Source of the DNA: Sumerlaeia bacterium
GTDB lineage: Bacteria; Sumerlaeota; Sumerlaeia; SLMS01; JAHLLQ01
Assembly: GCA_040219255.1 (NCBI GenBank)
Contig: JAVJSW010000036.1
Location: forward strand, 1 to 13,035
Reading direction: 5' to 3'
Length of the DNA stretch: 13,035 nt
Below the pieces are notes generated by a model that worked only from the letters and a program-made list of their open reading frames with translations, did no database searches and was not told the DNA's origin. Both the position numbers and the translations under genes were made by a program. Shown here piece by piece: positions 1 to 13,035 of this stretch (position 1 is its first letter; every line of letters begins with the position of its first letter).

Positions 1-55
1 CCTGCCAGTGCATTCGCTTCGCGCCGGATGTGAAGCCGGGGGTCTTGTGTTCCAT
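1..55 (-). CDS. 5' start of a probable downstream gene running off the window (MEHKTPGFTSGAKRMHWQ...), product unknown
   Basis: Minus-strand ATG at 55-53, preceded by GGAGAG (67-62) at 6-nt spacing. The frame is open to the window edge, but only 18 codons are visible. Confidence 0.45.
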   Translation of the reverse strand, partial: MEHKTPGFTSGAKRMHWQ

Positions 56-107
56 GACCTGCTCTCCGTGTATAAAATGAGGAGGCAGAATCGCACAGGA
101 CCCCGGC
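35..107. repeat. Nested imperfect inverted repeat (long hairpin)
   Basis: GCCGGGGGTCTTGTG (35-49) pairs with CACAGGACCCCGGC (94-107). The inner arms CTGCTCTCC (59-67) and GGAGGCAG (81-88) also pair. Confidence 0.6.
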
Positions 108-116
108 GATGGTCAA
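87..116 (-). promoter_or_regulatory. Possible sigma70-like promoter for the gene starting at 55
   Basis: On the minus strand, TTGACC (116-111) is followed by an 18-nt spacer ending in TGC and then GATTCT (92-87). The -10 match is weak. Confidence 0.25.
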
Positions 117-155
117 GATGGGGCTCGTAGGACGTTTACCGAAGAGATTGATCGT

Positions 156-1592
156 CTACATAAAGAAGCTGAATCGATGAGGTATCGGCGAGAATTGGGG
201 GACCCAGCGAAGCACGTCACCGACCTTTTGGGCAGCGCGTAGGGTGATGGGTTTTCCGCCATCGAATTGCGTATTGTTCCAGTTCATCTTCGTCAGGCTT
301 AGGATCTCGGCACACAGCTCGTCGACATCGCTATCCCCCGAGTCCTTTCTAACCTCCAGTGCTCGGGGCACGTAGTTGCCGGGGTAGGTTGAAAAATACT
401 CGACTGAGCCGCGCGTGTAGAGCAGCGCACGGTCTTCGTCGAGCGTCATGCAGGCTCCGCGCGGAATTGGATAAGCACCGATCCGGCACAAACGCATATC
501 CGAGGATCGAATCGAGACGAGGTCATGAAACCTGATGTTCTTCTCCTGCAACGCCTCTTGAATTCCCTCCACCTCCTCTTCCTTGAACGCGGAAGCCCTG
601 TGGAACACACACCTTGCGGGGGAATGATGATGTTCGGCCTCGTAGGCCTCCAGCATTTGTAGGATCAATTGTTTCGCTTCGGCGGCAGGGAGATACGGGC
701 GACGATCGGTTTTCGAGAACTCGGCAGGCCCACCTTGTAGGATCAAGCCGTCGCCTCGCTCGTCAAAAACTTGCGCCATCGAGGTGTGGAGGGCCGTGTT
801 GTCCGCATTCTTGAAGAACCCCAAGCCGACAAAACACGATGCGAGCTTCTTCGTGTCCTTCGGAATCCTCCAGGGGAAGCCCTTTGCCTTATAGTAAATC
901 GCTGTGACCAGGTTCCATGCACGCGTGGCCTCATCCTGCTGCTGCTTCACGACCTGCTTCCGCATCTGCCGCAGGTTCTGTCTGCTGATCATCTTGCCGC
1001 CTATCGTGGCGGGCCAAACAATCTGAGTCTGAATGTTGGCGACAAGTGCCTTGGCCTTCAGAATGTCGTGCAGATCGGGGATGATTCCGTCAGGAGTCAC
1101 TCCTCCTCGCGCCGCCGCGAGTTCTGCGCTCTTGCTGAGGATCTGGTTTGGAAGGACGATCAAGATGACATGTAGGCTTCTCTTCTGCGTGAGCCGCATG
1201 GCCTCTTGAGACAACCGCAGAGCGACGCGTTGGCAGAACGCAGAGAGGTCCGACTCCGCGCAAAGCTTGGTCAGTTCCAGTGCGGGCAACTCGCCCACTT
1301 CTTCGATTATGAACTCGGACTGGAATACACCGTTCCGCCCAAGAGCGGGAAACGGAGGAAAGAGATTTGGCTGCCGCGACTCTTTCGCGGGTATGCCGTT
1401 GGCCACGCTGACCAGCCACTTTTCTACCAGAGCCCGGTCCTCACGCGTCGCCACAACACCCAAGGAAACACGCGTCGGGCGCGAGACCTCGTTCACGTCA
1501 AACGGCCCGAAAGACGCAAGCCCGCCACGAATATCCACGTGGGTGTTTGAGTCGCCGAACTCCAACAGTGGTTCTGGGATTACCTTGAGCAT
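156..1592 (-). CDS. Short prokaryotic Argonaute (MID-PIWI only, slicer-inactive)
   Basis: 478 aa. N-terminal EPLLEFG...GPFD; MID 5'-end pocket residues LHDILKA, IQTQIV and NLVTAIYYKAKGFPW (HK-type); PIWI motifs CFVGLGF, VFHRAS, PIPRG, YPGNYVPRAL and EILSLTKMNWNN...PITL; C-terminal FFM. The catalytic Asp positions appear substituted. SD GGGAGGA lies inside the end of the upstream gene, with a 2-nt gap between the genes. Confidence 0.95.
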   Translation of the reverse strand: MLKVIPEPLLEFGDSNTHVDIRGGLASFGPFDVNEVSRPTRVSLGVVATREDRALVEKWLVSVANGIPAKESRQPNLFPPFPALGRNGVFQSEFIIEEVGELPALELTKLCAESDLSAFCQRVALRLSQEAMRLTQKRSLHVILIVLPNQILSKSAELAAARGGVTPDGIIPDLHDILKAKALVANIQTQIVWPATIGGKMISRQNLRQMRKQVVKQQQDEATRAWNLVTAIYYKAKGFPWRIPKDTKKLASCFVGLGFFKNADNTALHTSMAQVFDERGDGLILQGGPAEFSKTDRRPYLPAAEAKQLILQMLEAYEAEHHHSPARCVFHRASAFKEEEVEGIQEALQEKNIRFHDLVSIRSSDMRLCRIGAYPIPRGACMTLDEDRALLYTRGSVEYFSTYPGNYVPRALEVRKDSGDSDVDELCAEILSLTKMNWNNTQFDGGKPITLRAAQKVGDVLRWVPQFSPIPHRFSFFM

Positions 1593-1594
1593 AC

Positions 1595-2971
1595 CTAATC
1601 GTCCTCCCAGTCCGAACCGAAAAAGTCGTAATCAACGGAGGCGTCATCTGGTTCGGAGTTTGGGTCCGAAACAACCTCGTCTTTAGGGGGAAGCCATTCG
1701 GCATCTGGAACCTTGAAAGGGAGGATCTCAGATCGAAGCTCGCCGAACTCCAACCACTTGTGCCGTTGAGCGAACAACCCCGTTTGCTCGCCCAGGTAGT
1801 CCGCAAAGAACAGCACTTGAGACGTCACCGTGTTGTTCTTCTCCAGCTTTCGTAACCCAGAGAGCCACTCTTCGTGGCGCGGCTCCTGCTTTTCTCCATC
1901 AACGGTGTAGTGCCAGGTGGGGGTCAGGACCGCATACCAGTTCGTTGCGACTCGCTGCCAGCGCACCGCCACTGCCATATGCCGGTAGCTGTGAAACTTT
2001 CTACCTTCAAACTCCCGAATATCACCATGCACCACGGTCAAAGCTGAACTTCGTCCACATCTCTGATAGGAAATCTTGAGATCATTGGCGTCGTACGGTT
2101 TGCGGAAGTAGAAATACCCTCCTTCGGTCCATAGCTTCATCCCGCGTTCATACAGGAATCCGCGCAACAATTTGTTCAGCAACTCCACGAATCGCCGACT
2201 GCTCTCCGGATCATCCGCCCGCGCCCATTCAGTCCCCGCGTGCGATTCCACTGTTCCAGCTTCCACGAGGCTCTTCCACTCGGGTCTTGATAGGTCGTGA
2301 GCACTCAAGAGATAGTCGCCTCGCACCACGATCTCGCTGCTCTTCTCTCTGGCAGACTCGTTGAGCCATGCGAATGTCTCTTCTCGACTGCTGAAGACTG
2401 GCGTCGCTGTAAACACCTGCTCGGGGTAGCGCACCAGTTGCAGCATGTTCGTCCAAACCTTCTCCTCCTCGCGTGGGAGAGAGAAGTAGAAGCCCGAGCC
2501 CGGTGGTGCGGCGCGACGCAGAAGCTCTGCCCGAGAGTTTCGGTCAAAGCGCTGTGTCGCCTTGTTTATCCTGATGCCTTTGGAGCCATCGGACGCTGCG
2601 CGAGGAAAGTCGTTCGACCAGAAGTAGAAGGCCTCGTCGGGCTCACGGCTGACGATCACCAGAACAGGGAGATTGGCGCGACTCCAGTAATCCAGGTCCC
2701 GCTGGTCGGGCCGAAAGGTGAAGGCCTCTTCGTTCTCGTTATTGAAATAGGACGGGCCGCACTTGCTCTGCACGGCAATGTGGCTTCCGCTCACGGTGCC
2801 GGTGCCCTCGTCACGAAGTTCGATATACCCATCGATCCCCGCGTCGAACTGGGTGCGGGGAATCCAGAGACAACCCATATCGAGCACGATGCCCTCGATG
2901 ACGTTGATCCCCTTCTGCCCCGTGATGGAGGACTCAGGAAGTGTTTTCGGTCTCCTTGGCGAACGGGGCAT
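1595..2971 (-). CDS. DUF4365/DREN PD-(D/E)xK-type nuclease fused to APAZ; effector of a SPARDA-type short pAgo system
   Basis: 458 aa. The N-terminus GQKGINVI...FDAGIDGYIELRD...IAVQSK...DLDYWSRANLPVLVI is typical of DUF4365. The C-terminal half has APAZ-like motifs (EKVWTNML, RRFVELLN, YFYF, RHMAV..RWQR...WYAVLTPTWHYTVDG, LEKNNTV). It sits immediately upstream of the short pAgo and has SD GGAGGA. Confidence 0.88.
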   Translation of the reverse strand: MPRSPRRPKTLPESSITGQKGINVIEGIVLDMGCLWIPRTQFDAGIDGYIELRDEGTGTVSGSHIAVQSKCGPSYFNNENEEAFTFRPDQRDLDYWSRANLPVLVIVSREPDEAFYFWSNDFPRAASDGSKGIRINKATQRFDRNSRAELLRRAAPPGSGFYFSLPREEEKVWTNMLQLVRYPEQVFTATPVFSSREETFAWLNESAREKSSEIVVRGDYLLSAHDLSRPEWKSLVEAGTVESHAGTEWARADDPESSRRFVELLNKLLRGFLYERGMKLWTEGGYFYFRKPYDANDLKISYQRCGRSSALTVVHGDIREFEGRKFHSYRHMAVAVRWQRVATNWYAVLTPTWHYTVDGEKQEPRHEEWLSGLRKLEKNNTVTSQVLFFADYLGEQTGLFAQRHKWLEFGELRSEILPFKVPDAEWLPPKDEVVSDPNSEPDDASVDYDFFGSDWEDD

Positions 2972-3002
2972 TTTGGTCCTCCGGTCCTAGATCAGTAGTT
3001 GA

Positions 3003-4730
3003 TTACATCTCTATGCTTGGAGGAAGCTCGCTGTCTTCTGTAGTCACAGGCTCCTTGAGTGACTGTTTCGATTGAATGCAGCTAATCGCATTTCTAAGCC
3101 CCTCATTCAAACGTCGAATCAGTATCAGTCCTCGCTCCTTCATGTCGCTGATCGCCATGTTCTCTTTCTTGAGGAACTTATCCAAATCGGAACCCTTCAG
3201 GTGAGCGGCGCTCCTGGACCGGATGGCTTGGCACAGCTTCAGAGCGTTGAGCAGATCCTTCAGGCAGTCAGCCACGGCGAGGCCGTTCGCGGCAGCGTGC
3301 TCTAGCATACTGATCGAACCTTTGTTCTCTTCAGGTAGGCTCGTCATCTTCTTCTTGAGCGCACTGACGTTGATCGAATCGCAGGCAATCTTTGCAAGCG
3401 ACTGTACGAATTCATCGAAGTGCTTCTGCTCATTGACGGAGGGAAGGTGAAGGGCATTCAGGTGGTGTGCATCTCCTGGAGGAAGCGACCGGAACAGCGG
3501 CTCGCCCAGCATCGGAATGAACAGCGCATTTACTTCGCCGATCAGAATCTTGAATCGGTGGATTGGATCCAGGTTCTCTGGAAGATCGACAAACTTGGCT
3601 TCGAAGTCCCGAGCAAATCTTGCGGCGGAGATCCCCTGCTTGGTCGCGACTTGGTGAGCCTGCCAGTGTAGCTGCTCCTTGTATGGCATCTTGAAGAAGT
3701 CGCCTGCGTAAACATTCACAAGGTCGGTCTCGTGATTGATCTCGATATAAACACTCCATAGGCCTAGACACCGAAGTATGCCAGGCTCCACGTCGTACTT
3801 GCTGGGCTCGTCGTAGTATTTCTTCAGCACCGCTCGCTTGAAATTGATCGGAGTCAAGTATCGAACGCGCTCGCCCGTACCCCTTAGGCGAAAATCCTCA
3901 TCACCAAAGCACTCCAACTCGATCAGGTTACCGTCATCATCTCGACCCAATGAAACTGTAGCCCATTTCTGCTCTGGCGCGGCTACCTTGCCGGAGTCAA
4001 AGGGGAGCGTTACGTCGCATCCACGCAGAATTGAGCATGCACCAAAGGAGGTGACCATTCGAGTAGCATCCGGAGTTACATGAACTTCGTACCGACCAAT
4101 TCCGTTCTTGGGCGAAAGGATCTCACTATCAAACTCATTCTCAGGAATCACCACCTTGGTCGGTAAGAATCTTCTGTGGTCAAACTGCCGAAGAAGAGCG
4201 ACGCTCTTTAGCATGAGCCAAAGGCGTAGATGATAGGTGCTGACGAGAACCCTTTTTGTGGGCTTTCCTTGGCCCGAAAGACCCTGAAATCTAACAACGA
4301 CGATTTCCTCCCCACCGTCGTCGGTGTGGCGTAGCTCGGACAGGTCGGCGTTCGGATAGAGATTCCATGCGAGTACGAACTCGGTGGAAATCTCAAAGTG
4401 ATTCGGATGCCCGCCGTGGTACTCACGCAGAAATGTGAATGGTTCCGCCTCGATACCAAACCGGGCAGCGGGTGTATCATAACGCCAAATCTTCCCAAAG
4501 TTGTCGTACCAGATACAATACTTCCCGAAACATGGGTCGGCAGGCCAATCATCGCGTTCGAGGTATTCGGTAAATGGAGCTGCTCCCATCGGCACTAACA
4601 CGGACGTCCCGAAGAAGTCACCGTTCTCTCCCTTCTCCGAAATAGCGACAGTCAGCCACTCAGAGTCGCCGTAGTCGCTAACACCGGCGAAGTCTCGAAA
4701 GCGCAGGAATTCCAGGTCCTTGGTCGTCAT
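3003..4730 (-). CDS. Uncharacterised 575-aa protein with C-terminal helical HEPN-like domain (putative RNase effector)
   Basis: Long ORF. The start is re-called to ATG 4730 (MTTKDLEF), which has SD GAGGT at 6-nt spacing and no overlap with hsdS. The helical C-terminus contains CQAIRSRSAAHLKG (R-x5-H at 3201-3221). The central block is YLTPINFKRAVLKKYY...LRCLGLW...MPYKEQLHW. The CDS is secure and the HEPN call is tentative. Confidence 0.7.
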   Translation of the reverse strand: MTTKDLEFLRFRDFAGVSDYGDSEWLTVAISEKGENGDFFGTSVLVPMGAAPFTEYLERDDWPADPCFGKYCIWYDNFGKIWRYDTPAARFGIEAEPFTFLREYHGGHPNHFEISTEFVLAWNLYPNADLSELRHTDDGGEEIVVVRFQGLSGQGKPTKRVLVSTYHLRLWLMLKSVALLRQFDHRRFLPTKVVIPENEFDSEILSPKNGIGRYEVHVTPDATRMVTSFGACSILRGCDVTLPFDSGKVAAPEQKWATVSLGRDDDGNLIELECFGDEDFRLRGTGERVRYLTPINFKRAVLKKYYDEPSKYDVEPGILRCLGLWSVYIEINHETDLVNVYAGDFFKMPYKEQLHWQAHQVATKQGISAARFARDFEAKFVDLPENLDPIHRFKILIGEVNALFIPMLGEPLFRSLPPGDAHHLNALHLPSVNEQKHFDEFVQSLAKIACDSINVSALKKKMTSLPEENKGSISMLEHAAANGLAVADCLKDLLNALKLCQAIRSRSAAHLKGSDLDKFLKKENMAISDMKERGLILIRRLNEGLRNAISCIQSKQSLKEPVTTEDSELPPSIEM

Positions 4731-4758
4731 TTTCTTACCTCTTGAAGCTCTTCTTGCA

Positions 4759-5946
4759 TCACAACCCTGCCATGAACGCCCGTTGCAGCGCCGCTTCAAA
4801 CGTTGCGTCCGACTCGTTGCACTGTGCAGCTAAGCGGTTTCGAGTCTTGAAAACGCCCCAAGTGAAGTCCGCGAAAGCGTCCTGAAGCTTGGGATCTGGC
4901 GTCGGAATCTCATATTGTATAAGTTTCTTCTGCGAGACGTTCAGCATTGAACCGCTGGTACCGGTTGCTAGTGTGGCGAACTTACTTCGGAAGAGCGGGT
5001 CTGCCATCAGGTACTTCAAGTATTCCTTCCTAAGCTGCTTGGGATTCGTCTCGATGGTCCAAAGCTTATCTGGCAGGAATAGGCCCTCCGTATTTTCTTC
5101 GACGATCGCCATGGCAGCGACAAGCTCCCGAGTGTTGGCTCGGCTGAAGATGAGGTCTCCCTTTTTGGGTCTGACCAAGGTCTCCTCGGCTGGCGGATCG
5201 TTCACAACCTTGTGCTCATGTGGAAGGAATCGACCACTCGTCACCGCGCTGATCTTCAGAACTGCCCATTCGTCCTTCGCGCGTTGGCGCTGTTCACCAC
5301 CAACGCTTTTGCCTGCACGAATTTCCGTGATCATGTCTCCCAATCGAACCATTGGCCACCCCTTCGGATTTGTGACGGGGTCGCCGAACATGTCGAGGAA
5401 CGTGGAGCGGATGAGGTCGTCGGTAAGGTTGAGGGCCTGCTGAGCTTTGCGGCGCAGCGTGTCCGCCTTGTCGAGGATCGCCGCAATCCGCCGCTGCTCC
5501 GTGAGGGGAGGGAGCGGGATTTGAAGTTTCTTCAGGTCATCAATTAGGATACCTTTTACTGTAGCACCTTTCCCCATACGTTCAAGATCCGCGCCCTTAC
5601 TGATGATAAAGTGCAGTAGGTAACGAGGATACAGCTGTGGGCCAGCCACAAGCGCCTTCAGGTCCTGGTTTATCGCAACGTCCTTTGTTGCTATCGCCGC
5701 TCTCCCTAGGGCCATCCGCGTGGCGGTTATCACATGACCGGCTTCGATTACTTGGCTGGCGCTGTTTTGAAGACCTTCTTCGGTGATCGACTCTTGGACA
5801 GCGCTCAACTCCGAACCTTGAAGATCCTTTACCGTCGCCCAGGGGATGTTTCCGCCCCAGTATGCGGGGTTGTGTCGGGATGGCGTGCCGCCTCCCTTTA
5901 TAGTGATAAGGTCGCCAAGCAGACTGACAGGGATTGAGGTACTCAC
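4759..5946 (-). CDS. hsdS: Type I restriction-modification specificity subunit
   Basis: 395 aa with two TRDs (GGGTPSR...WGGNIPWATVKDL...AINQD and DLIFSRANTRELV...GTSGSMLNVSQ). They are separated by the conserved IPLPPLTEQRRIAAILDKAD...FLDMFGDPVTNPKGW. The GTG start overlaps the hsdM stop (GTGA). Confidence 0.96.
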   Translation of the reverse strand: MSTSIPVSLLGDLITIKGGGTPSRHNPAYWGGNIPWATVKDLQGSELSAVQESITEEGLQNSASQVIEAGHVITATRMALGRAAIATKDVAINQDLKALVAGPQLYPRYLLHFIISKGADLERMGKGATVKGILIDDLKKLQIPLPPLTEQRRIAAILDKADTLRRKAQQALNLTDDLIRSTFLDMFGDPVTNPKGWPMVRLGDMITEIRAGKSVGGEQRQRAKDEWAVLKISAVTSGRFLPHEHKVVNDPPAEETLVRPKKGDLIFSRANTRELVAAMAIVEENTEGLFLPDKLWTIETNPKQLRKEYLKYLMADPLFRSKFATLATGTSGSMLNVSQKKLIQYEIPTPDPKLQDAFADFTWGVFKTRNRLAAQCNESDATFEAALQRAFMAGL

Positions 5947-7523
5947 TTCAGCATTCCCCCCAGCTCCTCGATGTCCGCCGCGATCTCTTCTTGCAACGCG
6001 CGGAGACGCCCGAGGATGACCTTGGGAGCGTCGTACTCAACGGCGACGTGATTGGACTCGCGGTAGCGGTTGATGGAAAGGTCGTAGCCTTCTTTGACGA
6101 TGTCCGTCAGGGATACAGCGAAGCATTTGGACTTCCGGTCGGCGAAGTCTTTGTTGTTCTTCCGCTCGCGCCATTCCGCCCAGCGCGTGGCAACGTCGGG
6201 GATGTCGTTCTCCTTCACTTCCTGGCGCTTGTCGTCGAGCGAGAACCCGTCAGCCTCGACGTCGTAGAAGAAAACGTCCTCGGTCTTGCCGCCCCTGGTG
6301 AAGACCAGGATGGCTGTAGCGACGCCCGCATAGGGCTTGAACACGCCGCTGGGGAGGTTGACGACGGCTTCCAGCTGGTTCTCCTCCACCAGCATCCTGC
6401 GCACGGCGACATGGGCGGTTGAGCTGCCGAACTGGACGCCGTTGGGAACCACGACGGCGCAGCGCCCGCCGAGGCGAAGCATCTGAACCATGAGCGCAAG
6501 GAAGAGGAGTTCTGTCTTCGTGGTCTTCACCTTACGCTTGAGGCTCGGCAGGAGCGCCTGCTCGTCGAGGCTCCCCTTGAATGGTGGGTTCGCAAGGATG
6601 ACATCGAAGGCATCCTTGACGAGTGCCGGGTGGCGATCGTCAAAGCTGGCGGCAAGCGTGTCCTGGTAGTGGATGTTGGGTTCGTCGAGGCCGTGAAGGA
6701 GGAGGTTCATGGCTGAGACGCGGAGCATCGTGGCGTCAAAGTCGAAGCCGTGGATTCCATCTGCGATCTGACGGCGTTGGTCTGCGGTGAGAAGGTCTCC
6801 GGTATAGGAGACGTCGGTACGACCGGTCTCGGGATCGACCTGTTCGATGCGTCCTGCCTCCGAGGTATGCTGGCGCATGATGTGGGCGATGGTGCGCACG
6901 AGGAAGCCCGCCGTGCCGCAGGCAGGGTCTGCGATGCGGTCGCCGGGTTGGGGCGCCACCATCTCGACCATCAGGTCAATAATGTGGCGGGGCGTGCGAA
7001 ACTGGCCGTTGATGCCCGCCGTTGTGAGCTTGGCGAGGACGTGCTCGTAGATGTCGCCCTTCCAGTCATCGCTCGTCAGGTCGAGTTCGCTGATCATGTT
7101 GACCGCGCGGACCAGCAGGTCGGGCTTGGAGATGAGGAACTGGGCATCCTTGAAGAATTCACCGATGGACATCTTCAGGCAGACGCGGTGCATGTGGCCA
7201 AAGACCCCCTGCTCGGCCTTGATCCCCTTCTCCGGATCGGCAGGCCAACCCCGGAAGAGGTCGAGCATCTCCTGGCCACCAAGTTCCTTGAAGCGATGCC
7301 AGCGCAGATGCTGTTCGTCGGGACCGTAGAGAAGCTTGCCGCGCAGTTCGGCATCACCGAGGCGCTGGATCTTCTTCTCGGTGAGACTCTCGCGCATGTC
7401 CAGCAGCCGCAGGAAGATGAGGTAGCTGAGCTGCTCGATGACGGTGAGGGGGTTGGCGATGCCTCCCGCCCAAAAGGACGTCCATAGTGTATCGATTTTT
7501 GTTTTCATGGCACCAGTTATCAT
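5943..7523 (-). CDS. hsdM: Type I RM N6-adenine DNA methyltransferase subunit
   Basis: 526 aa. N-terminal MITG...LW..FWAGGIANPLTVIEQ, GQFRTPRHI, SAM-binding motif I DPACGTAGFL, catalytic motif IV LANPPF, and LPSGVFKPYAGV. ATGA overlap with the hsdR stop. Confidence 0.97.
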   Translation of the reverse strand: MITGAMKTKIDTLWTSFWAGGIANPLTVIEQLSYLIFLRLLDMRESLTEKKIQRLGDAELRGKLLYGPDEQHLRWHRFKELGGQEMLDLFRGWPADPEKGIKAEQGVFGHMHRVCLKMSIGEFFKDAQFLISKPDLLVRAVNMISELDLTSDDWKGDIYEHVLAKLTTAGINGQFRTPRHIIDLMVEMVAPQPGDRIADPACGTAGFLVRTIAHIMRQHTSEAGRIEQVDPETGRTDVSYTGDLLTADQRRQIADGIHGFDFDATMLRVSAMNLLLHGLDEPNIHYQDTLAASFDDRHPALVKDAFDVILANPPFKGSLDEQALLPSLKRKVKTTKTELLFLALMVQMLRLGGRCAVVVPNGVQFGSSTAHVAVRRMLVEENQLEAVVNLPSGVFKPYAGVATAILVFTRGGKTEDVFFYDVEADGFSLDDKRQEVKENDIPDVATRWAEWRERKNNKDFADRKSKCFAVSLTDIVKEGYDLSINRYRESNHVAVEYDAPKVILGRLRALQEEIAADIEELGGMLK

Positions 7524-10500
7524 TGGTGTGGGCGGACCTCGGGGTTCTGGGGTTGGAATTTCTGAATAACGCTCAGCAGGTAGTCAACCTGCTGCGATTC
7601 GGTGAAGATGCCGTCCACCCCGTCCGAATGGAGGGAGGTGAAAGGGGCTTCGTAAAGCTCTTTCAGTTCGATCGCGCCGAAGCGGCGGATGTGGTTCTTC
7701 AGGAGGTCGAGAAACTGGATTTGACGGGCGGTGAGCATGGGGTAGCGCGTCACGAAGGCGACGAACTCGCGCTCCACTGCCTCGGCATCCAGGCCGATAA
7801 TGCGACGGATCAGGAAGTCGAGGGGCGTCGTCAGATTCCCATAAAACTCCTGGAGTAAGGCGAGGTGGACGTTGGAGTCCTGCACGAGGATGAGTTTCTG
7901 GAGCGCATCGAGATCGGCCTGAGTCACCGGTTCGCCGCGCTTGATCCTCTTGAGCGTCGGACTTGTCTTTTCCAGATCGCGTAGGATGCGCTCGACACGC
8001 TGGCGGTAGGCAGCCTGATCCAGAGACGACATGGTCTTGAGCGTATAGTACGTGGACTCCGTCTCTGCGACGACTTCCGGAACGTCTATGATCTTGGGCG
8101 GGAGGCCGGGAGGCTCCGTAGAGCGCTGGCGGTAACGCATGATACCACGGAGCTGGAGGCGAAGGTCCTCAAGATCAGCACATGTTGCCGTAGTCCAGAA
8201 CGGCGCGTCCGGTGTCTCGATCTTCTGGAGCCACTGTGCCTTGGCCTTCACCTGGGTTAGGTTACGAGGAAGTTGGAGGACCTGGTCGATCAGATCGTCG
8301 CGGAGATTGGTAAAGCTTGCGCTTTGACGCATCAGTTCAAGTTGCATGCGGGCGATGAGCAGGTCGAAGCGATAGGCATCAGCGTCGCTACCGATGTCGC
8401 GCCACTGCATGAGCCGGGCGATCTCGCTGCGGAGGACTCCCTTGGTCTGGGGATCGAACTGACGCAGGACGTCGGGGTTCCGAGTCACGAGTACGTGGCG
8501 CCAGCGTTCGCGCACGGGGACCGAGTGCTCGGGGAGATCCTGGATGTCTTTTTGAAGAAGATCGATGGCGATACCGAAGAAAGTCTCGTCGAACTTCTGA
8601 AGGGCCATCTCGGCAAGGTCGATGCGTGCCTCAAAGAGCTGCTCCAATACTGCCTTAGGCCGGACGTCGGGGCGTTCCTTGTAGTTGGTGACGTCGAAGC
8701 GTTCAAAATTTCCCCAGTGATCGAAGATGAGGAAGTCCTTCTTGTGGTTCCCTGGCCCGAAGAGATTGTGGCACAGGCGTGTGCCTCGACCGATCATCTG
8801 CCAAAATTTCACGAGCGAGAACACTGGTTTGGCGAAGACGAGGTTTACGACCTCCGGCACGTCGATGCCGGTGTCCAGCATGTCGACTGAGATTGCGATA
8901 GTCAGGTTCTTGGTCGAATCCTTGAACTCGTCGATGAGGGTTTCGGCTCGGGGGTCGTAGGTGTCGATCACCCGGCAGAAAGTGCCGCCATACTGGGGAT
9001 ATAGTTCGTGGAAGAGACTCTCCAGAAGGATGGCGTGCTGGTGATTGCGAGCGAAAATGATGGTCTTGCCCGGGCGGGAGCCGGATGCGTCACGGATTCC
9101 GCTCTCCATCAGGTTGCGGATGACCTGGCGATTCGTATCCTTGTTGAAGACTGCTCGGTCGAGGTCTCCTGGGGCGAAGTTGTAGAGCTGGGCCTGATCG
9201 TCCTGATCGAGAAGAATCTCCTGCTGCTCGGGCGTAAGCTGAGCCCAACGGATGCCTGATCGCAACAAACCGGTCGTGTGGATCTTGGGAACGAACGGGA
9301 CGAGATTTCCCTCTTCGATAGCCTTTTCTAAGCTGTAGGAAAAGGTCGGATCGAGAGGTGGCCTATCGAAGAGCCGATAAGTGTCGCGGTGTACCATCTG
9401 GACAGGCGTTGCAGTAAGTCCTATTTGGATGGCATCGAAGTAGGTCAGGATGTTTCTGTAACGATTGTAGATGCTCCGGTGGCTCTCGTCGGCGATAATG
9501 AGGTCGAAGAAGCCGGGATCGAACGATTCATAGGCCTTGAGCATCGCCGGGTAGGTAGCCAGGTAGATGCGTGAGTTCCTATCCTCAGAAGTCTTTGCTG
9601 TAACGAAGGTACGAGGCTCTCCTGGCAGGAACTCCTTGAAGGCATTGTGCGCCTGCTTGCGCAGTTCCAACCGGTCGCAGAGGAAGAGTATCCTGACGGC
9701 GTGCCCGGCTCGGTTCAGGAGGTCACACAACGCCACAGCCACACGGGTCTTGCCGGTTCCCGTTGCCATGACAATCAAGCCCCGGCGTTTGCGTGCCGTT
9801 AGGTCGTCGGTGACGCGCTTGATAGCTTCGATCTGATAAAGCCGATCGATGATCCTCGGGTCGTGGGAAACTTGGTCGAGAGGCTTGGCGTGGCGGCGAG
9901 CGATGAGACTCTTTAGACTATCCGGCGCGTAGAATCCGAAGAGTCGGCGAGGAGTATCGCCCGCCGCATCGTTCCAGATCCAGATCTCGTATCCATTAGT
10001 GTAAAAGATGACAGGGCGAAAGCCGCCGTATTGCTTCTCCAGCGCATCCGCGTAGAGCTTTGCCTGCTGACGTCCCTTGGATGGCTCCTCGCTAGTTTTC
10101 TTTGCCTCGACCACGGCAAGGGGTTTGCCGTTCTCTGCATAAAGGACGTAGTCGCACTTGCCTTGCCCTGAGTTCGTAGGCTGCCCGTCGACCTCTATCT
10201 CTTGTCCGACTTCCTCCGTGCTAGAGCCATCAAGCCCGACGTGCCACCCAGCATCGAGCAAGAGCCGATCAATAAGCTGCTTCCGCGTCGTAGCCTCATT
10301 GAACTTCAACTCGTCCAAGTGGGCGGCACCCTGCTGCTGGAGGGCACGCAGCTCGGTTTCAGACTTGGCAGCAACTTCTGCTTCGGCCCGCGTCCGTTTC
10401 AGTTCGTCGAGGAGGCGAAGCGTTTCGGCTTCTTTCGTCTCTAGCTCACGCTGGAGCTTTTCGCGCTCCCGCTCCTGTTCTTGGGCATCGAGCTTTGCAA

Positions 10501-10933
10501 AGCCACTCGCAGCGGGAGGACGAAAGGGACTGATGTCGGACCGTTGACCTTGATCGTAAGACAAATGGAGCCATTCGGCAAGCTTGCGCGTTTCCTGTAG
10601 GAGGTTCAGGGCGTCGGCGGTAGTGACTGGTTTGCCGTGGGCGCCACGATTCCCAAAGCGTCTGATGAGGTGCAGGAGGTCGAGAATCTGCTTGGGGACG
10701 CGAGACTCAAAGGCGGGATAGCGGAGCAAGTCGAGGAAGTTGAGTTCGATGCGGGCGGGAAAGCCCATCAGCTCATAGACGATCAGGGTGAGGCGTTCGC
10801 CAAAGAGACGGAGCTTGACCATCGCACTGGCAGGATCAGGATGCGCGTACCTCTCGGCATAGCCAGCCAGATCGGCAAGCTCAGGGCGGAGGGTTCTCAG
10901 GAATTCAAAATTCTGCGAGGGCATCGAAAGCAT
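7520..10933 (-). CDS. hsdR: Type I restriction endonuclease/translocase subunit R with N-terminal DUF4145-like domain
   Basis: 1137 aa. Nuclease motif CDYVL...VVEAKK, Walker A MATGTGKT, DESH box IIADESHRS, GLTATP, MLDTGIDVP and QMIGRGTR. The C-terminus is EcoEI_R_C-like. An alternative start at ATG 10924 has AGGA 8 nt upstream. Confidence 0.97.
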   Translation of the reverse strand: MLSMPSQNFEFLRTLRPELADLAGYAERYAHPDPASAMVKLRLFGERLTLIVYELMGFPARIELNFLDLLRYPAFESRVPKQILDLLHLIRRFGNRGAHGKPVTTADALNLLQETRKLAEWLHLSYDQGQRSDISPFRPPAASGFAKLDAQEQEREREKLQRELETKEAETLRLLDELKRTRAEAEVAAKSETELRALQQQGAAHLDELKFNEATTRKQLIDRLLLDAGWHVGLDGSSTEEVGQEIEVDGQPTNSGQGKCDYVLYAENGKPLAVVEAKKTSEEPSKGRQQAKLYADALEKQYGGFRPVIFYTNGYEIWIWNDAAGDTPRRLFGFYAPDSLKSLIARRHAKPLDQVSHDPRIIDRLYQIEAIKRVTDDLTARKRRGLIVMATGTGKTRVAVALCDLLNRAGHAVRILFLCDRLELRKQAHNAFKEFLPGEPRTFVTAKTSEDRNSRIYLATYPAMLKAYESFDPGFFDLIIADESHRSIYNRYRNILTYFDAIQIGLTATPVQMVHRDTYRLFDRPPLDPTFSYSLEKAIEEGNLVPFVPKIHTTGLLRSGIRWAQLTPEQQEILLDQDDQAQLYNFAPGDLDRAVFNKDTNRQVIRNLMESGIRDASGSRPGKTIIFARNHQHAILLESLFHELYPQYGGTFCRVIDTYDPRAETLIDEFKDSTKNLTIAISVDMLDTGIDVPEVVNLVFAKPVFSLVKFWQMIGRGTRLCHNLFGPGNHKKDFLIFDHWGNFERFDVTNYKERPDVRPKAVLEQLFEARIDLAEMALQKFDETFFGIAIDLLQKDIQDLPEHSVPVRERWRHVLVTRNPDVLRQFDPQTKGVLRSEIARLMQWRDIGSDADAYRFDLLIARMQLELMRQSASFTNLRDDLIDQVLQLPRNLTQVKAKAQWLQKIETPDAPFWTTATCADLEDLRLQLRGIMRYRQRSTEPPGLPPKIIDVPEVVAETESTYYTLKTMSSLDQAAYRQRVERILRDLEKTSPTLKRIKRGEPVTQADLDALQKLILVQDSNVHLALLQEFYGNLTTPLDFLIRRIIGLDAEAVEREFVAFVTRYPMLTARQIQFLDLLKNHIRRFGAIELKELYEAPFTSLHSDGVDGIFTESQQVDYLLSVIQKFQPQNPEVRPHQ

Positions 10934-10969
10934 CCTATCGTGCCCCCTGTAGGTCGAGATTCATGCCAG

Positions 10970-12472
10970 TCAATCCTCCACCCCATAACGCTTCAACCAA
11001 TTCGTAAGTGTCTGATAGCTTGGAAGTCCGACCAGCTTTGCCGCCTGAGACTTGTTCCCATGGGTTTCATCCATGGCTCGCTCTAGGTAGTGCCGCGCGA
11101 CTTGATCGATCAAGTCGTTTAGATTCAAGCCTTCTCCGAGCGGTCGCCCCAAAACGTCTCCGCTCGCTTTTACAGGTCCGCTGAGGATGGCTTCCCGGAT
11201 GTCATCGACGGTGATCGTGGCTCCGAGGGACCAAACGATCGCCCTCTGGAGGATGTTGATCAGCTCGCGTACGTTTCCGGGATAGGAATGCTGAAGCAGA
11301 AGGTTCCTTGCGCCTGCGGAAAGTTTCTTATCCACATGACCCGGCTGACCCTTCGACTCCCGGTTGATCTGTTGAAGGTAATGATCGACCAGGAGAGAGA
11401 GATCGCGCCCTCGTTCCCGCAGTGCGGGAATCTTGAGAACCGCAACGGCGACGCGGTGGAACAGGTCCTCACGGAAACGACCTGCAAGCACGTCCTGGCT
11501 AAGGTCACGGTGTGTTGCGGCAATGAGGCGGAAATCGACCTTTTTGGGGCGACTGCTACCTACTTTAGTGACCTCATGCTCCTGAAGCACTCGGAGAAGA
11601 CGGACTTGGGCGTGAAGAGGAAGCTCGCCGATCTCATCGAGGAAGAGGGTCCCTCCGTGGGCTTCCTCGACGTGGCCTGTGCGTGGCTGAGTCGCTCCAG
11701 TGAATGCGCCCTTCTCATGGCCAAATAATTCGGAGTCGACCAATTCCTCCGGGATGGCTCCGCAGTTGACCGCGATGAACTTGCCGTTCTTTCGCGCGGA
11801 TGATTGGTGTATGGCCCGCGCGAAGAGTTCCTTCCCAGTCCCGGATTCGCCGAGGAGGAGGACAGGAAGTGTCCTTGAAGCCACACGCCGAGCCTTGAGA
11901 ACCACCTTCTTCATCGCCTCGCTGTTGTGGAGGATCGCGTCAAACTCCGGCGCCTTGGGAGCAAGACCCAAATTCAGAGTGATGAGGTCGATGTCAGCCT
12001 GCTGAAGTCGGGTCGCTGTGAACTCAGCGGAGAGTTCAAAAGGGAAGTCAACCTCCCGGACCCCATGCGTAGCAGACGACTCGATGAGCGTCGCTGGATA
12101 TGCAGTCTTGCCGACTAGCAGCCAGATGGACGCCATCGCAGGTGTCCCCGGCGAAAGGTGAAAGAAAAGATTAGGCCGCATCTTCTGGTCGCTGAGCACT
12201 GATCTGAGCGTGTCCTCGACAGCCGCGAAAATCTCTCGGTGCGCAGTTGGTGACGACAGGGTGCGGGGATGCAGAACAAGCTCGGCCTTCGACCTTGGCT
12301 TCAACCACTCAAGGTATCGCGCATTGTCCGGCTCTGGGTAGTTGCTGAGAAGATGCACGCTGCCAAAAGACCGCCAACGGACTGCCTGAGCGATAGGCCC
12401 AAGGTTCTGGCCGTCGTCAGCGGCGGCAGCGTTGAGGTCGGTTTTGCCTATCCATGCGAAGAGAGCGTCCAT
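10970..12472 (-). CDS. Sigma54-dependent transcriptional regulator (bEBP): probable RtcR/CARF-like sensor domain, AAA+ domain and Fis-type HTH
   Basis: 500 aa. Walker A GESGTGKE, AVNCGAI, ELFGHEKGAFTGA, Walker B LFLDEIGEL, FREDLFHR, YPGNVREL, and HTH GNKSQAAKLVGLPSYQTL. The N-terminus AWIGKTDL...GPI...VHLL...FHLSPGTPAMASIWLL resembles RtcR-type CARF domains and is not a receiver or PAS domain. Confidence 0.92.
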   Translation of the reverse strand: MDALFAWIGKTDLNAAAADDGQNLGPIAQAVRWRSFGSVHLLSNYPEPDNARYLEWLKPRSKAELVLHPRTLSSPTAHREIFAAVEDTLRSVLSDQKMRPNLFFHLSPGTPAMASIWLLVGKTAYPATLIESSATHGVREVDFPFELSAEFTATRLQQADIDLITLNLGLAPKAPEFDAILHNSEAMKKVVLKARRVASRTLPVLLLGESGTGKELFARAIHQSSARKNGKFIAVNCGAIPEELVDSELFGHEKGAFTGATQPRTGHVEEAHGGTLFLDEIGELPLHAQVRLLRVLQEHEVTKVGSSRPKKVDFRLIAATHRDLSQDVLAGRFREDLFHRVAVAVLKIPALRERGRDLSLLVDHYLQQINRESKGQPGHVDKKLSAGARNLLLQHSYPGNVRELINILQRAIVWSLGATITVDDIREAILSGPVKASGDVLGRPLGEGLNLNDLIDQVARHYLERAMDETHGNKSQAAKLVGLPSYQTLTNWLKRYGVED

Positions 12473-12477
12473 GGGTT

Positions 12478-12540: not shown

Positions 12541-12730
12541 CCGCTAAGTCGTGGTTCAAGAAGATAATCGCGCCGATCTTGAGCGATCACAAATAACTGA
12601 AAATGGATGACTTGCGCTATTTTAGGCGCTTGCTTCTGCCGACCACTCGGTACACTTATGCCGGTGGTTTAGATTCTGCTCCTACATGAACAACAACGCG
12701 GCTTCCACTCACGCCCCGGCGTGCTAGTCC

Positions 12731-13035
12731 GTAAGCGTCAGTTGAGCCACGTTCCCGGCGGCCTTGCCATCGTCCGTGGCAGGGCGTAGCGTCTCCACGA
12801 GCCTCGAGCCCGCTTGGCCTGGGGAAGCACCGTTTCGCTCGCGTTGGTCTTTGCGGATGTTGACTGCTGTCGAATCCTCAGCCGATTTCGGCCGCATCCT
12901 CGGTTGCAGCCCGAGCCGCCATCCAGCGGTCCGGCAACCATTGAGCCAATTGGCTTTGCGGCGAGTCCGGCAGCTCTGTGAAGAGAGCCTGCAGGTAGCC
13001 CAGGGGGTTGGCGCCGGCCCGCGCGGCGCTCTCGA
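12731..13035 (-). mobile_element. IS66-family insertion sequence, downstream (right) end; continues beyond the window
   Basis: The terminal sequence GTAAGCGTCAGTTGAGCC begins at 12731, and IS66 inverted repeats start with GTAA. It lies about 150 bp after the stop of an IS66 TnpC-like C-terminus. Confidence 0.82.
12878..13035 (-). CDS. tnpC: IS66 family transposase TnpC, C-terminal fragment (partial, absent from the ORF track)
   Basis: Translation from 13033 gives ESAARAGANPLGYLQALFTELPDSPQSQLAQWLPDRWMAARAATEDAAEIG*. This matches the IS66 C-terminal pattern ET/SA...G..P..YL..vL..LP......l..lLP..W. Confidence 0.85.
   Translation of the reverse strand, partial: ESAARAGANPLGYLQALFTELPDSPQSQLAQWLPDRWMAARAATEDAAEIG

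What the first reader, a model, noticed from the sequence alone, without database searches (positions are those of the whole stretch)
156..12472. Candidate composite defence operon: CARF-like sigma54 regulator + Type I RM + HEPN-like protein + SPARDA
Seen: seven genes on one strand with gaps of 36, -4, -4, 28, 31 and 2 nt and no obvious internal terminator. Established: Type I RM and SPARDA are each anti-phage/anti-plasmid systems, and RM loci often carry backup abortive effectors such as PrrC with EcoprrI. Inference: this may be one layered system in which RM cleaves first and, if that fails, the HEPN-like RNase and the guide-activated DREN nuclease trigger dormancy or death. HsdR breaks and their resection could supply the ssDNA targets a short pAgo needs. 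I do not know of this combination being described as a unit.
Basis: partly seen in the sequence, partly recalled or inferred. Interest (0 to 1): 0.8.

Follow-up and report, generated by a model that had tools for sequence, protein, structure and literature searches.

The report
Sigma-54 restriction cassette carrying SPARDA cargo
This is a mobile anti-phage gene train in which a known kind of sensor-activator plus restriction system carries, as swappable extra cargo, a short-Argonaute (SPARDA) suicide nuclease and an uncharacterised restriction-linked protein; it is a new example of a described layout, not a new kind of system.

Summary
The seven co-directional genes, their gaps and the lack of terminators are real. 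They encode an RtcR-like CARF/sigma-54 activator, an EcoAI/EcoEI-like Type I R-M system whose HsdR has an N-terminal DUF4145 (HEPN) domain, a 575-aa protein of no catalogued family, and an intact SPARDA pair. Comparison shows a conserved core with variable cargo. The core (activator, a sigma-54 -24/-12 promoter just after its stop codon, hsdR-M-S) recurs on plasmids, in a same-order genome and in metagenomes. The nearest relative shares 82% DNA identity only from 44 nt upstream of the activator's start codon to the hsdS stop codon. What follows hsdS differs between loci, most often a DUF3696-type ATPase pair. SPARDA or the 575-aa gene was found behind 0 of 80 metagenome activator loci and none of the 7 other activator loci read. 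No pAgo lay beside any of 80 relatives of the 575-aa gene. None of 7 plasmid SPARDA loci had a Type I R-M or activator gene. The 575-aa family sits next to R-M enzymes of several types (16 of 75 loci) and keeps an R-x5-H motif (146 of 150), so a HEPN-like role is plausible but unproven. The activator/R-M link was published in 2014 and 'superoperons' in 2024. Co-transcription is inferred, not shown.

The parts
12728..13035 (-). End of an IS66-family element, not part of the system. The transposase C-terminus reads toward the island and ends near 12878. The terminal inverted repeat starts GTAAGCG at about 12729.
   Evidence: About 15 other places in the genome match from 12728-12732 onward at 93-97% identity. 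Reading of the sequence. The IS66 assignment rests on my recall of the family's transposase C-terminus and GTAAGCG ends.
10970..12472 (-). RtcR-like (RtcR_PspF2 group) activator, 500 aa. CARF-like sensor at residues 1-175 (11948-12472), sigma-54 AAA+ domain at 181-346 with GAFTGA, and a Fis-type HTH at 458-496.
   Evidence: PADLOC PDLC01995 7.5e-193. Pfam Sigma54_activat 1.4e-71, AAA_lid_14, HTH_8. NCBIfam RtcR scores 343 bits, below the 650 cut-off. The CARF motif LSPGTPAM is conserved in 9 aligned homologues. It is the only such CARF domain in the genome.
10954..10968 (-). Sigma-54-type -24/-12 promoter element TGGCAT-N5-TCGA, starting 2 nt after the activator's stop codon. GG is at -24; the -12 dinucleotide is GA instead of the consensus GC.
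   Evidence: Sequence. A strict GG-N10-GC element lies in the -60 to +300 nt stretch scanned around the end of the activator match in 46 of 71 relatives, mostly 4-30 nt after that end (53 of 71 when GA is allowed). Background is 0.065 (strict) and 0.11 (loose) per 360 nt. The GA form is shared with the nearest relatives L104 and L105.
7520..10933 (-). HsdR, 1137 aa, EcoAI/EcoEI-like. N-terminal DUF4145 (HEPN-family) domain, PD-(D/E)xK nuclease, SF2 helicase and EcoEI_R_C tail. The true start may be the second ATG at 10924.
   Evidence: PADLOC REase_I 1.1e-263. Pfam ResIII, EcoEI_R_C, HSDR_N and DUF4145 3.7e-6. R91, G94, N95 and H99 are invariant in 17 aligned N-termini. DUF4145 is described as a HEPN family fused to REase/SF-II helicase modules in PMC3710099. 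Most homologue alignments start at residue 4.
5943..7523 (-). HsdM, 526 aa, N6-adenine methyltransferase. Its start overlaps the hsdR stop by 4 nt.
   Evidence: PADLOC MTase_I 1.5e-162. Pfam N6_Mtase 7.6e-59 and HsdM_N. The NPPF and DPACGTAGFL motifs can be read.
4759..5946 (-). HsdS, 395 aa, with two target-recognition domains. It is the last gene of the conserved core.
   Evidence: Specificity_I 4e-82. Methylase_S, two stretches. DNA homology to L104 (82% over 7779 bp) runs from window 12516 to 4756 and ends 3 nt past the hsdS stop.
3003..4730 (-). Gene 5, 575 aa, of no catalogued family. Beta-rich N-terminal part (residues 1-345), then a helical C-terminal domain (350-560) carrying the conserved R504-S505-x4-H510 motif (3201-3221). 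First cargo gene, 28 nt after hsdS, with its own SD. GC is 52.7%, against 55-61% for the other six genes.
   Evidence: No Pfam, PADLOC or NCBIfam hit. 1236 representative clusters at E<=1e-3. AF2 model pLDDT 88, pTM 0.82. Residues 1-245 match Avs3 8dgc_A residues 1851-2076 at Z 11.4, rmsd 3.1, 170 aligned. The C-terminal domain gives weak matches that include HEPN proteins at Z 4.5-5.2. R504 and H510 are both present in 146 of 150 family representatives. R-M neighbours; GC.
1595..2971 (-). DREN(DUF4365)-APAZ protein of SPARDA, 458 aa. The nuclease signature D47 ... Q68-S-K70 aligns with the solved protein.
   Evidence: PADLOC Aga_REase-PNTD1-PNTD2 3.6e-111. DUF4365 1.1e-23. 9jsb_D 'DREN-APAZ' 4.2e-39 with the alignment shown.
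156..1592 (-). Short pAgo (MID-PIWI) of SPARDA, 478 aa, 2 nt after DREN-APAZ.
   Evidence: PADLOC pAgo_I 6.7e-146. 9qbp_B 4.5e-90 over residues 3-465.
1..142 (.). End of another multi-copy IS, 13 nt beyond the pAgo stop codon. Not part of the system; any native terminator may have been lost.
   Evidence: About 18 other places in the genome match 1-~142 or part of it at 93-100% identity. Sequence.

Best explanation
This is a horizontally acquired, IS-bracketed defence cassette built on a known scaffold.

The conserved core has three parts. (1) An RtcR-like CARF / AAA+ / HTH enhancer-binding protein. (2) A sigma-54 -24/-12 promoter directly after its stop codon. (3) An EcoAI/EcoEI-like Type I R-M operon (hsdR-hsdM-hsdS) whose HsdR carries an N-terminal HEPN (DUF4145) domain.

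Downstream of hsdS is a slot that holds different defence genes in different hosts. Here it holds a 575-aa R-M-linked protein and a complete SPARDA pair (DREN-APAZ plus short pAgo). The 575-aa protein has a sensor-like beta-rich N-terminal part and a diverged HEPN-like C-terminal domain.

Most likely mechanism. The activator senses an RNA-damage-type ligand through its CARF domain; this is inferred by analogy with RtcR and not shown. It then drives sigma-54 transcription through hsdRMS and, with no terminators and only 28- and 31-nt gaps, on into gene 5 and SPARDA (inferred). Each module then acts on its own trigger. R-M cuts unmethylated DNA. Gene 5 probably cleaves RNA when released (inferred). 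SPARDA, once guide RNA meets invader DNA, forms filaments and degrades nucleic acids indiscriminately; this is established for the family in the review PMC13434031, passages read.

The layering therefore comes from shared transcription and accretion in a cargo slot. I found no evidence for a co-evolved four-part machine.
For: Gene identities.

The core recurs. Four of 6 plasmid loci with a full-length activator homologue have activator -> hsdR-M-S -> differing genes. The other 2 have activator -> VWA/PP2C/kinase -> CoCoNuT-like genes. A same-order genome (G016) has activator -> hsdRMS -> unknown, helicase, DUF3696 ATPase, unknown. Among 49 metagenome loci with a complete activator and at least 1.5 kb downstream, 36 have HsdR or HsdM on the same strand within 4 kb.

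Module boundary: homology to L104 (82% nt; HsdR 90%, HsdM 91%, HsdS 86% aa) covers window 4756-12516 only. L104 and L105 carry other genes after hsdS.

Cargo census over 25 loci: 15 hold a NsnB/PDC-M55A/HEC-03B-like DUF3696 ATPase, 2 OLD/GajA-like, 1 PDC-M36A, 1 PDC-M09A, 1 JukAB+DruH, 5 unknown.

Promoter: strict -24/-12 element around the end of the activator gene (mostly just after it) in 46 of 71 loci, against 0.065 expected per 360 nt. rpoN is present.

Co-transcription: gaps, SDs and no gene-strand terminators between genes.

Gene 5 goes with R-M, not SPARDA. An R-M gene is the immediate same-strand neighbour in 16 of 75 loci (Type ISP, MmeI-like, Eco57I/TaqI_C IIG, Type I). None of 80 loci has pAgo or DREN-APAZ.

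Foreign origin: gene 5 was found in 1 of 101 related genomes, DREN-APAZ in 1 of 75 and the CARF domain in 3 of 75 genomes of the phylum, own genome included in each count.

Literature: RtcR-like NtrC-AAA-HTH proteins 'often associated with R-M systems' (PMC4012209, passage). RtcR-headed superoperons with Type I RM and other systems (PMC11090510, passages).
Against: No transcript data exist; no RNA run was listed, so the single-operon reading is inference.

The window's -12 element is GA, not the consensus GC, so the promoter may be weak or work differently. The same GA occurs in 6 relatives (L100, L104, L105, L113, L155, L156), which argues against simple decay.

Putting hsdR behind an inducible promoter together with hsdMS raises an unanswered question: how is the host kept methylated? 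An internal constitutive promoter was not looked for beyond a sigma-70 consensus scan, which found none on this strand.

The CARF ligand is unknown.

My samples are limited. Only 7 of 33 plasmid SPARDA loci were inspected. Flanks of 10 kb leave at most about 4 kb after hsdS. A recurrent SPARDA-cargo lineage could therefore have been missed.
Confidence: 0.6

Rival explanations
1. Integrated layered system. R-M, the HEPN-like protein and SPARDA depend on one another mechanistically: for example, HsdR breaks and resection provide the ssDNA targets for the pAgo, and the RNase and DNase fire only when restriction fails.
For: One strand, tight spacing and a single recognisable promoter at the head. 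There is a precedent of PrrC held in check by EcoprrI, and a proposal of multi-pronged R-M plus HEPN defence (PMC3710099, passages). Echeloned defence has been proposed for RtcR-headed superoperons (PMC11090510).
Against: The combination was not seen again. Neither SPARDA nor gene 5 was found at any of the 80 metagenome activator loci, or at the 7 other activator loci read. None of the 80 gene-5 loci has SPARDA. None of the 7 SPARDA plasmid loci has a Type I R-M or activator gene. The nearest relatives of the core carry other cargo, and homology breaks at the hsdS stop. SPARDA works as a stand-alone two-gene system elsewhere (review PMC13434031).
Confidence: 0.1
2. Plain defence-island juxtaposition with separate transcription. 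The activator controls only hsdRMS, or nothing, given the off-consensus -12. Gene 5 and SPARDA are expressed from their own undetected promoters.
For: The modules have different histories: gene 5 GC is 52.7% against 55-61% for the other six genes, and cargo differs in relatives. The -12 is GA. SPARDA loci elsewhere have their own upstream regions.
Against: The 28- and 31-nt intergenic gaps leave room only for a ribosome-binding site. No sigma-70-like promoter or terminator-like site was found between the genes on this strand. Promoters inside upstream coding sequence cannot be excluded.
Confidence: 0.25
3. Gene 5 is not a nuclease. It is a non-catalytic accessory of R-M enzymes, for example a regulator or adaptor, and the R-x5-H motif serves binding.
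For: No HEPN profile hit in Pfam for 68 family members. hhalign against the DUF4145 HEPN alignment gives probability 0.1. Fold matches to HEPN proteins reach only Z 4.5-5.2 among many other helical bundles. In 8 loci a PIN-domain RNase gene follows it, which could be the real effector there.
Against: R504 and H510 are both kept in 146 of 150 representatives that are only about 30% identical overall, a pattern typical of catalytic residues. The nearest named clusters in the protein atlas are RnlA/LsoA HEPN toxins; the scores of 0.76-0.79 make this a lead only.
Confidence: 0.3

Closest known systems
RtcR-like (RtcR_PspF-type) CARF-AAA+-HTH activators linked to R-M systems, and RtcR-headed defence 'superoperons' (Makarova et al. 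2014, PMC4012209; Bell et al. 2024, PMC11090510)
   Same: An activator of the same PADLOC group sits at the 5' end, with co-directional defence genes behind it. Type I R-M comes directly after the activator, further defence modules follow, and a sigma-54 promoter lies between the activator and the first gene. The closest plasmid homologues of the activator (49-52% identity) head CoCoNuT-type operons.
   Different: There is no CoCoNuT (McrBC-like) module here. The terminal abortive module is SPARDA, preceded by an uncatalogued 575-aa protein. I found neither behind any other activator locus examined. The -12 promoter dinucleotide is GA.
SPARDA (short pAgo + DREN-APAZ; solved complexes 9jsb, 9qbl/9qbp/9qbq)
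   Same: The same two-gene order and tight coupling, full-length matches to both solved chains, and a conserved nuclease signature.
   Different: Here it sits 31 nt behind another gene at the end of a sigma-54-headed R-M train, with no upstream region of its own. The 7 plasmid SPARDA loci inspected stand apart from R-M and from such activators.
PrrC-EcoprrI and other R-M-linked HEPN proteins (Anantharaman et al. 2013, PMC3710099)
   Same: A putative HEPN protein is encoded in a Type I R-M operon. The family recurs next to R-M enzymes of several types, and its R-x5-H motif fits Rx4-6H. The HsdR itself shows the published DUF4145 HEPN / EcoEI-like helicase fusion.
   Different: Gene 5 has no ABC ATPase domain. 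It lies after hsdS, not between hsd genes. No HEPN profile recognises it.
ApeA (HEPN anticodon nuclease activated by deoxydinucleotides; bioRxiv 10.64898/2026.01.26.701840, abstract and structure section read)
   Same: A single ~580-aa protein with N-terminal sensing parts and a diverged C-terminal HEPN of about 230 aa. The catalytic Arg is near residue 502 in Ec2ApeA, against R504 here. HepT (5YEP) is named as ApeA's nearest structural relative, and 5yep_B also appears among gene 5's weak matches. The ApeA family is reported as embedded in R-M operons (PMC3710099).
   Different: No Pfam match at all, so none to the ApeA models. ApeA is described as predominantly alpha-helical, whereas residues 1-345 of gene 5 are beta-rich and resemble the C-terminal part of Avs3.

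Membership tests
SPARDA | Protein with an N-terminal DREN (DUF4365, PD-(D/E)xK) nuclease domain fused to APAZ | tested here: met
   DUF4365 1.1e-23 at residues 19-154. Aga_REase-PNTD1-PNTD2 3.6e-111 over 9-433. 9jsb_D DREN-APAZ 4.2e-39 over 10-432, with D47 and Q68-x-K70 aligned to identical residues.
SPARDA | Adjacent short pAgo (MID-PIWI only) | tested here: met
   478 aa. pAgo_I 6.7e-146. 9qbp_B 4.5e-90. It starts 2 nt after DREN-APAZ.
SPARDA | Guide-dependent collateral nuclease activity | not testable with these tools
   Needs biochemistry or a challenge assay.
Type I R-M (EcoAI/EcoEI-like) | HsdR with PD-(D/E)xK nuclease and SF2 helicase, HsdM with NPPF, and HsdS with two TRDs, all in one operon | tested here: met
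   motifs read. NCBIfam EcoAI-family R scores 275 bits, below the 550 cut-off, so it is a relative and not an equivalog.
RtcR (equivalog, regulator of rtcBA) | Score above the NCBIfam NF038308 cut-off | tested here: not met
   343.4 bits against a cut-off of 650.
RtcR (equivalog, regulator of rtcBA) | Placed next to rtcB/rtcA | tested here: not met
   The only rtcB is on another contig (C60), and no -24/-12 match lies upstream of it.
RtcR_PspF2 CARF-AAA-HTH group (R-M-associated RtcR-like activators) | CARF-like N-domain plus sigma-54 AAA+ with GAFTGA plus C-terminal HTH, encoded next to R-M genes | tested here: met
   PDLC01995 7.5e-193 over the full length. Pfam domains. GAFTGA read. hsdR starts 36 nt downstream.
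Sigma-54 promoter | GG at -24 and GC at -12 with 10-nt spacing | tested here: not met
   The sequence is TGGCAT-N5-TCGA: GG is present but the -12 dinucleotide is GA. The position is conserved, and 46 of 71 relatives have the full consensus. It works like a sigma-54 promoter by position; its function is unproven.
RtcR-headed CoCoNuT superoperon (Bell et al. 2024) | CoCoNuT (CnuB/CnuC McrBC-like plus CnuH) module at the 3' end | tested here: not met
   No such genes in the window. The layout is otherwise the same.
HEPN superfamily (gene 5 C-terminal domain) | Conserved Rx4-6H motif | tested here: met
   R504-x5-H510, both kept in 146 of 150 representatives.
HEPN superfamily (gene 5 C-terminal domain) | Four-helix up-down HEPN fold or a profile match | tested here: inconclusive
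   VIA-align Z is 5.2 (5yep_B), 5.0 (2hsb), 4.7 (7aex RnlA) and 4.5 (9oik HepS), among many unrelated helical bundles. There is no Pfam hit. hhalign against DUF4145 gives probability 0.1. The domain-only fold could not be run.
ApeA | Match to Pfam's ApeA-family models (HEPN_Apea, ApeA_NTD1; names recalled, not shown by any search) | tested here: not met
   Gene 5 has no Pfam family at E<=0.01. In the scan of 68 family members at E<=1, the first member matched nothing. The 25 listed of the 31 families hit were each hit by a single member and include no ApeA-family model; six families were not shown.
PrrC/RloC-type anticodon nuclease | N-terminal ABC ATPase fused to HEPN | tested here: not met
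   No ATPase domain in Pfam or PADLOC. The N-terminal part is beta-rich in the model.

The most novel reading that the evidence does not exclude
The cassette could be a transcriptionally staged three-tier immune circuit. Its own HEPN RNases (the DUF4145 domain on HsdR and the gene-5 protein) would make RNA ends with 2',3'-cyclic phosphate. The RtcR-like CARF domain would read these ends, giving a feed-forward loop. That loop would raise SPARDA to an effective dose only after restriction has been engaged or defeated. Gene 5 would then be the founding member of a new, widespread class of R-M-coupled HEPN effectors with an Avs3-like sensor domain.
Probability: 0.12. Interest if true: 0.75.

Novelty: new member of a known kind. 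Interest (0 to 1): 0.38.

Why it matters
The case shows that the R-M cassette controlled by an RtcR-like sigma-54 activator is a platform with a defined junction, the hsdS stop codon. Quite different abortive-infection modules are plugged in behind that junction, now including a short-Argonaute system. This gives a compact (12.4 kb), fully intact natural construct for testing two open questions. Do these CARF activators really induce defence operons, and on what signal? The idea was predicted in 2014, and my literature searches turned up no experimental test of it for the R-M-linked group. Does putting SPARDA under such control change its cost or timing? The case also flags a large uncatalogued protein family (gene 5) that travels with R-M enzymes of at least four types.

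Tried and rejected
Gene 5 against libraries:
- No hit in Pfam, PADLOC or NCBIfam.
- 68 family members scanned in Pfam at E<=1 gave only scattered single-member chance hits.
- A profile of 56 members against all PDB sequences gave 0 hits at E<=1.
- Foldseek against PDB gave no match at E<=0.001.
- hhalign of the C-terminal-domain family against the HsdR DUF4145 alignment gave probability 0.1, so gene 5 is not a copy of the HsdR HEPN domain.
- The search for homologous proteins gave 11 proteins, all unnamed or 'hypothetical'.

Jobs that did not run:
- Complex prediction, for a HEPN-type dimer, was not available.

Transcript evidence: no RNA holder was listed for the stretch.

Other searches:
I repeated it with 9 closer sequences.
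- A canonical TGGC-N8-TGC search of the window found nothing at the junction (3 matches against 1.9 expected, none relevant). The off-consensus element was found by reading the junction and by comparison with relatives.
- A second candidate element upstream of the activator (near 12535) lacks the -12 GC/GA and was dropped.
- rtcB has no upstream -24/-12 match.
- One gene-5 relative (L065) lies next to a 300-aa DUF4365 protein. One case among 75 in a transposon-rich region is too little to link the two families.

Full report
**Observation**

The window is a complete 13,035-bp contig of a 5.35-Mb, 83-contig genome. Both contig ends are copies of multi-copy insertion-sequence ends.

Terminator-like sites are no more frequent than in shuffled sequence (10 against 12.3 +/- 3.7). 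The only two on the gene strand are weak stems inside coding sequence. Each of the two cargo junctions has a Shine-Dalgarno sequence and nothing else.

**What the genes are**

- Gene 1 is a CARF-like / sigma-54 AAA+ (GAFTGA) / HTH activator of the PADLOC group RtcR_PspF2 (7.5e-193).
  - It is below the NCBIfam RtcR cut-off (343 against 650 bits), so it is RtcR-like, not RtcR.
  - The genome's one rtcB is on another contig. No other such CARF domain is present.
- Genes 2-4 are an EcoAI/EcoEI-like Type I R-M system.
  - Its HsdR begins with a DUF4145 domain whose R91, G94, N95 and H99 are invariant in 17 homologues.
  - Anantharaman et al. 2013 describe DUF4145 as a HEPN family fused to REase and SF-II helicase modules (PMC3710099, passages).
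- Genes 6-7 are a complete SPARDA pair. Both match solved SPARDA chains over their full length and the nuclease signature is conserved. The family's mechanism (guide RNA, target DNA, filament, indiscriminate nuclease) is taken from the review PMC13434031 (passages).
- Gene 5 (575 aa) has no hit in Pfam, PADLOC or NCBIfam.

**Comparative anatomy: a conserved core plus a cargo slot**

A tblastn search of plasmids with the activator found seven full-length homologues. I read six of them.
- Two head VWA / PP2C / kinase / CoCoNuT-like operons.
- Four are followed directly by hsdR-hsdM-hsdS of the same lineage (HsdR 42-46% and HsdM about 50% identical), then by unrelated genes.

In the host's own phylum, 3 of 75 genomes have the CARF domain. 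In one of them, from the same order, the activator is again followed by hsdRMS. The cargo there is an unknown protein, a helicase, a DUF3696 ATPase and another unknown.

A metagenome scan with the CARF-domain alignment returned 80 loci.
- 49 have a complete activator and at least 1.5 kb downstream. Of these, 36 have HsdR or HsdM on the same strand within 4 kb.
- None of the 80 has a tblastn match to gene 5, DREN-APAZ or pAgo.

The two nearest loci (activator 75-76%, HsdR 88-90%, HsdM 91% identical) are decisive. DNA homology to the window runs from 44-49 nt upstream of the activator's start codon to 3 nt past the hsdS stop codon in L104 (window 4756-12516, 82%). In L105, which has a different hsdS, it runs to the hsdM stop. 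After hsdS, L104 has two unknown ORFs and a patatin-like gene, and L105 has three unknown ORFs.

I took a census of 25 loci that have activator plus HsdM plus HsdS and at least 900 nt beyond.
- 15 carry a NsnB/PDC-M55A/HEC-03B-like DUF3696 ATPase, usually with a ~300-aa partner.
- 2 carry OLD/GajA-like genes.
- One each carries PDC-M36A, PDC-M09A and JukAB+DruH.
- 5 carry unknown genes.

So the slot normally holds defence genes. The window's content (gene 5 plus SPARDA) is unique in this sample.

**Promoter**

Two nucleotides after the activator's stop codon lies TGGCAT-N5-TCGA (10968-10954). Among 71 related loci with a complete activator gene and at least 120 nt downstream, 46 have a strict GG-N10-GC element in the -60 to +300 nt scanned around the end of the activator match. 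Most of these lie 4-30 nt after that end. The count is 53 when GA is allowed at -12. Background is 0.065 and 0.11 per 360 nt respectively. All six plasmid loci have such an element.

The window, its two nearest relatives and four other loci have GA instead of GC at -12. The genome encodes sigma-54.

The position and conservation argue that this is the operon's promoter. The off-consensus -12 means its strength and its dependence on the activator are open.

**Gene 5**

- The family is large: 1236 clusters at 50% identity with E<=1e-3.
- An AlphaFold model built from 56 sequences is confident (pLDDT 88, pTM 0.82). It has a beta-rich N-terminal part (1-345) and a helical C-terminal domain (350-560).
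- Residues 1-245 match the C-terminal part of Avs3 (8dgc_A 1851-2076) at Z 11.4, rmsd 3.1 A, 170 aligned residues. This is well above the next row at Z 7.7.
- The helical domain gives only weak matches (Z about 4.5-5.2). These include the HEPN proteins 5yep_B, 2hsb, RnlA 7aex and HepS 9oik among many unrelated bundles. I count that as inconclusive.
- R504 and H510 (R-S-x4-H, fitting Rx4-6H) are both present in 146 of 150 representatives.
- The nearest named atlas clusters are RnlA/LsoA HEPN toxins at 0.76-0.79, a lead only.

Neighbourhoods: of 80 loci found in reference genomes, 75 gave an ORF for the match. In 16 of these the immediate same-strand neighbour is an R-M gene.
- Type ISP: 4 loci.
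- MmeI-like: 1 locus.
- Eco57I/TaqI_C Type IIG with DUF7149-DUF7814: 8 loci.
- HsdS upstream: 1 locus.
- HsdM or HsdR downstream: 2 loci.

In 8 loci a PIN-domain gene follows, usually overlapping the stop codon. None of the 80 has pAgo or DREN-APAZ.

Gene 5 therefore belongs with the R-M module, as an accessory of the PrrC or ApeA kind in layout, and not with SPARDA. It is not a detectable member of the ApeA family.

**SPARDA**

Seven of 33 plasmid loci with a DREN-APAZ homologue were read. All have the two-gene unit. None has a Type I R-M or sigma-54 activator gene annotated within 9-10 kb. One lies behind a PLD/helicase system.

In the host's phylum, DREN-APAZ was found in 1 of 75 genomes, the window's own. 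Gene 5 was found in 1 of 101 relatives.

**What is known**

Makarova et al. 2014 already wrote that a family resembling RtcR, with NtrC-like AAA+ and HTH domains, is not linked to Rtc and is 'often associated with restriction-modification systems' (PMC4012209, passage).

Bell et al. 2024 described RtcR homologues at the head of co-directional 'superoperons' with Type I R-M and other systems in front of CoCoNuTs. They proposed echeloned defence and a feedback through HEPN-made cyclic-phosphate RNA ends (PMC11090510, passages).

My searches for RtcR plus restriction-modification plus Argonaute returned only those papers. A search combining sigma-54, enhancer-binding protein, anti-phage, restriction-modification and CARF returned nothing. 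The supplementary tables of both papers could not be opened.

Earlier notes of this scan describe the same activator/R-M layout in other genomes and reach the same verdict. None mentions SPARDA cargo.

**Verdict**

The genes very probably form one sigma-54-headed transcription unit, and layered defence is a reasonable functional outcome. But the evidence points to a known scaffold with exchangeable cargo, not to a co-evolved R-M / HEPN / SPARDA machine. The new elements are SPARDA as cargo, the clean junction at the hsdS stop codon, and an uncatalogued R-M-linked family with a conserved R-x5-H motif.

Noticed in passing
window 3003-4730; loci L011-L090: Gene 5 belongs to a large family (1236 representative clusters) that is missing from Pfam, PADLOC v2 and NCBIfam. 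In 16 of 75 loci it sits directly beside R-M enzymes of at least four types, often with overlapping stop and start codons. The conserved core is residues ~292-560; the N-terminal part diverges faster.
   Followed up: partly
L016, L017, L019-L023, L049 (gene-5 homologues in Latescibacterota and Poribacteria MAGs): In 8 loci a ~140-aa PIN-domain gene follows the gene-5 homologue directly, usually with a 4-nt overlap. This suggests a conserved two-gene pair in those lineages. In L019 and L023 the pair also follows a Type ISP enzyme.
   Followed up: no
window 1-245 of gene 5 (3996-4730): The N-terminal beta-rich part of the model resembles the extreme C-terminal region of Avs3 (8dgc_A 1851-2076; Z 11.4, rmsd 3.1, 170 aligned). 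That region is part of a protein solved bound to a phage terminase. Whether it is a shared sensor fold was not pursued.
   Followed up: no
L111, L114, L124, L135, L146, L151, L153, L171, L094, L096, L100 and others: The commonest cargo behind activator-hsdRMS is a ~490-630-aa DUF3696/AAA_15 ATPase (best PADLOC matches NsnB, PDC-M55A, HEC-03B), usually followed by a ~300-aa protein of no PADLOC family. It occurs in 15 of 25 loci and looks like the default partner of this cassette.
   Followed up: partly
window 10954-10955; L100, L104, L105, L113, L155, L156: A GA in place of GC at the -12 position of the sigma-54 element recurs in seven loci, counting the window. That is more than a single decayed promoter would explain. 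It may mark a sub-class with different activator dependence.
   Followed up: no
window 10922-10933: hsdR has two in-frame ATGs 9 nt apart. Most homologue alignments begin at residue 4, and an AGGA lies 8 nt before the second ATG. The real start may therefore be 10924, which would make the gap after the activator 45 nt.
   Followed up: partly
window 1-142 and 12728-13035; G000 contigs C24, C61 and others: The island is bracketed by what look like opposite ends of IS66-type elements (termini GTAAACGTCC... and GTAAGCGTCAG...), both with many copies in the genome. The 12.6-kb segment could be a composite-transposon-like unit, or the contig may simply break at repeats. In C61 the two end sequences abut each other.
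   Followed up: no
window 5354-5506 vs L105 9995-10147: L105 has a different hsdS from the window, except for a 153-nt central stretch at 93% identity. This is the usual sign of target-recognition-domain shuffling around the conserved central region.
   Followed up: no
L065 8638-11362: In one Desulfocapsa MAG a 300-aa DUF4365 protein (too short to carry an APAZ region) lies directly upstream of a gene-5 homologue, beside integrase and transposase genes. This is a single case.
   Followed up: partly
L186 (Bradyrhizobium elkanii plasmid) 3737-12797: Here SPARDA follows, on the same strand, a DUF6361 / phospholipase D / DEAD-box helicase trio next to a WYL regulator. This is another case of SPARDA appended to a different defence train.
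   Followed up: no
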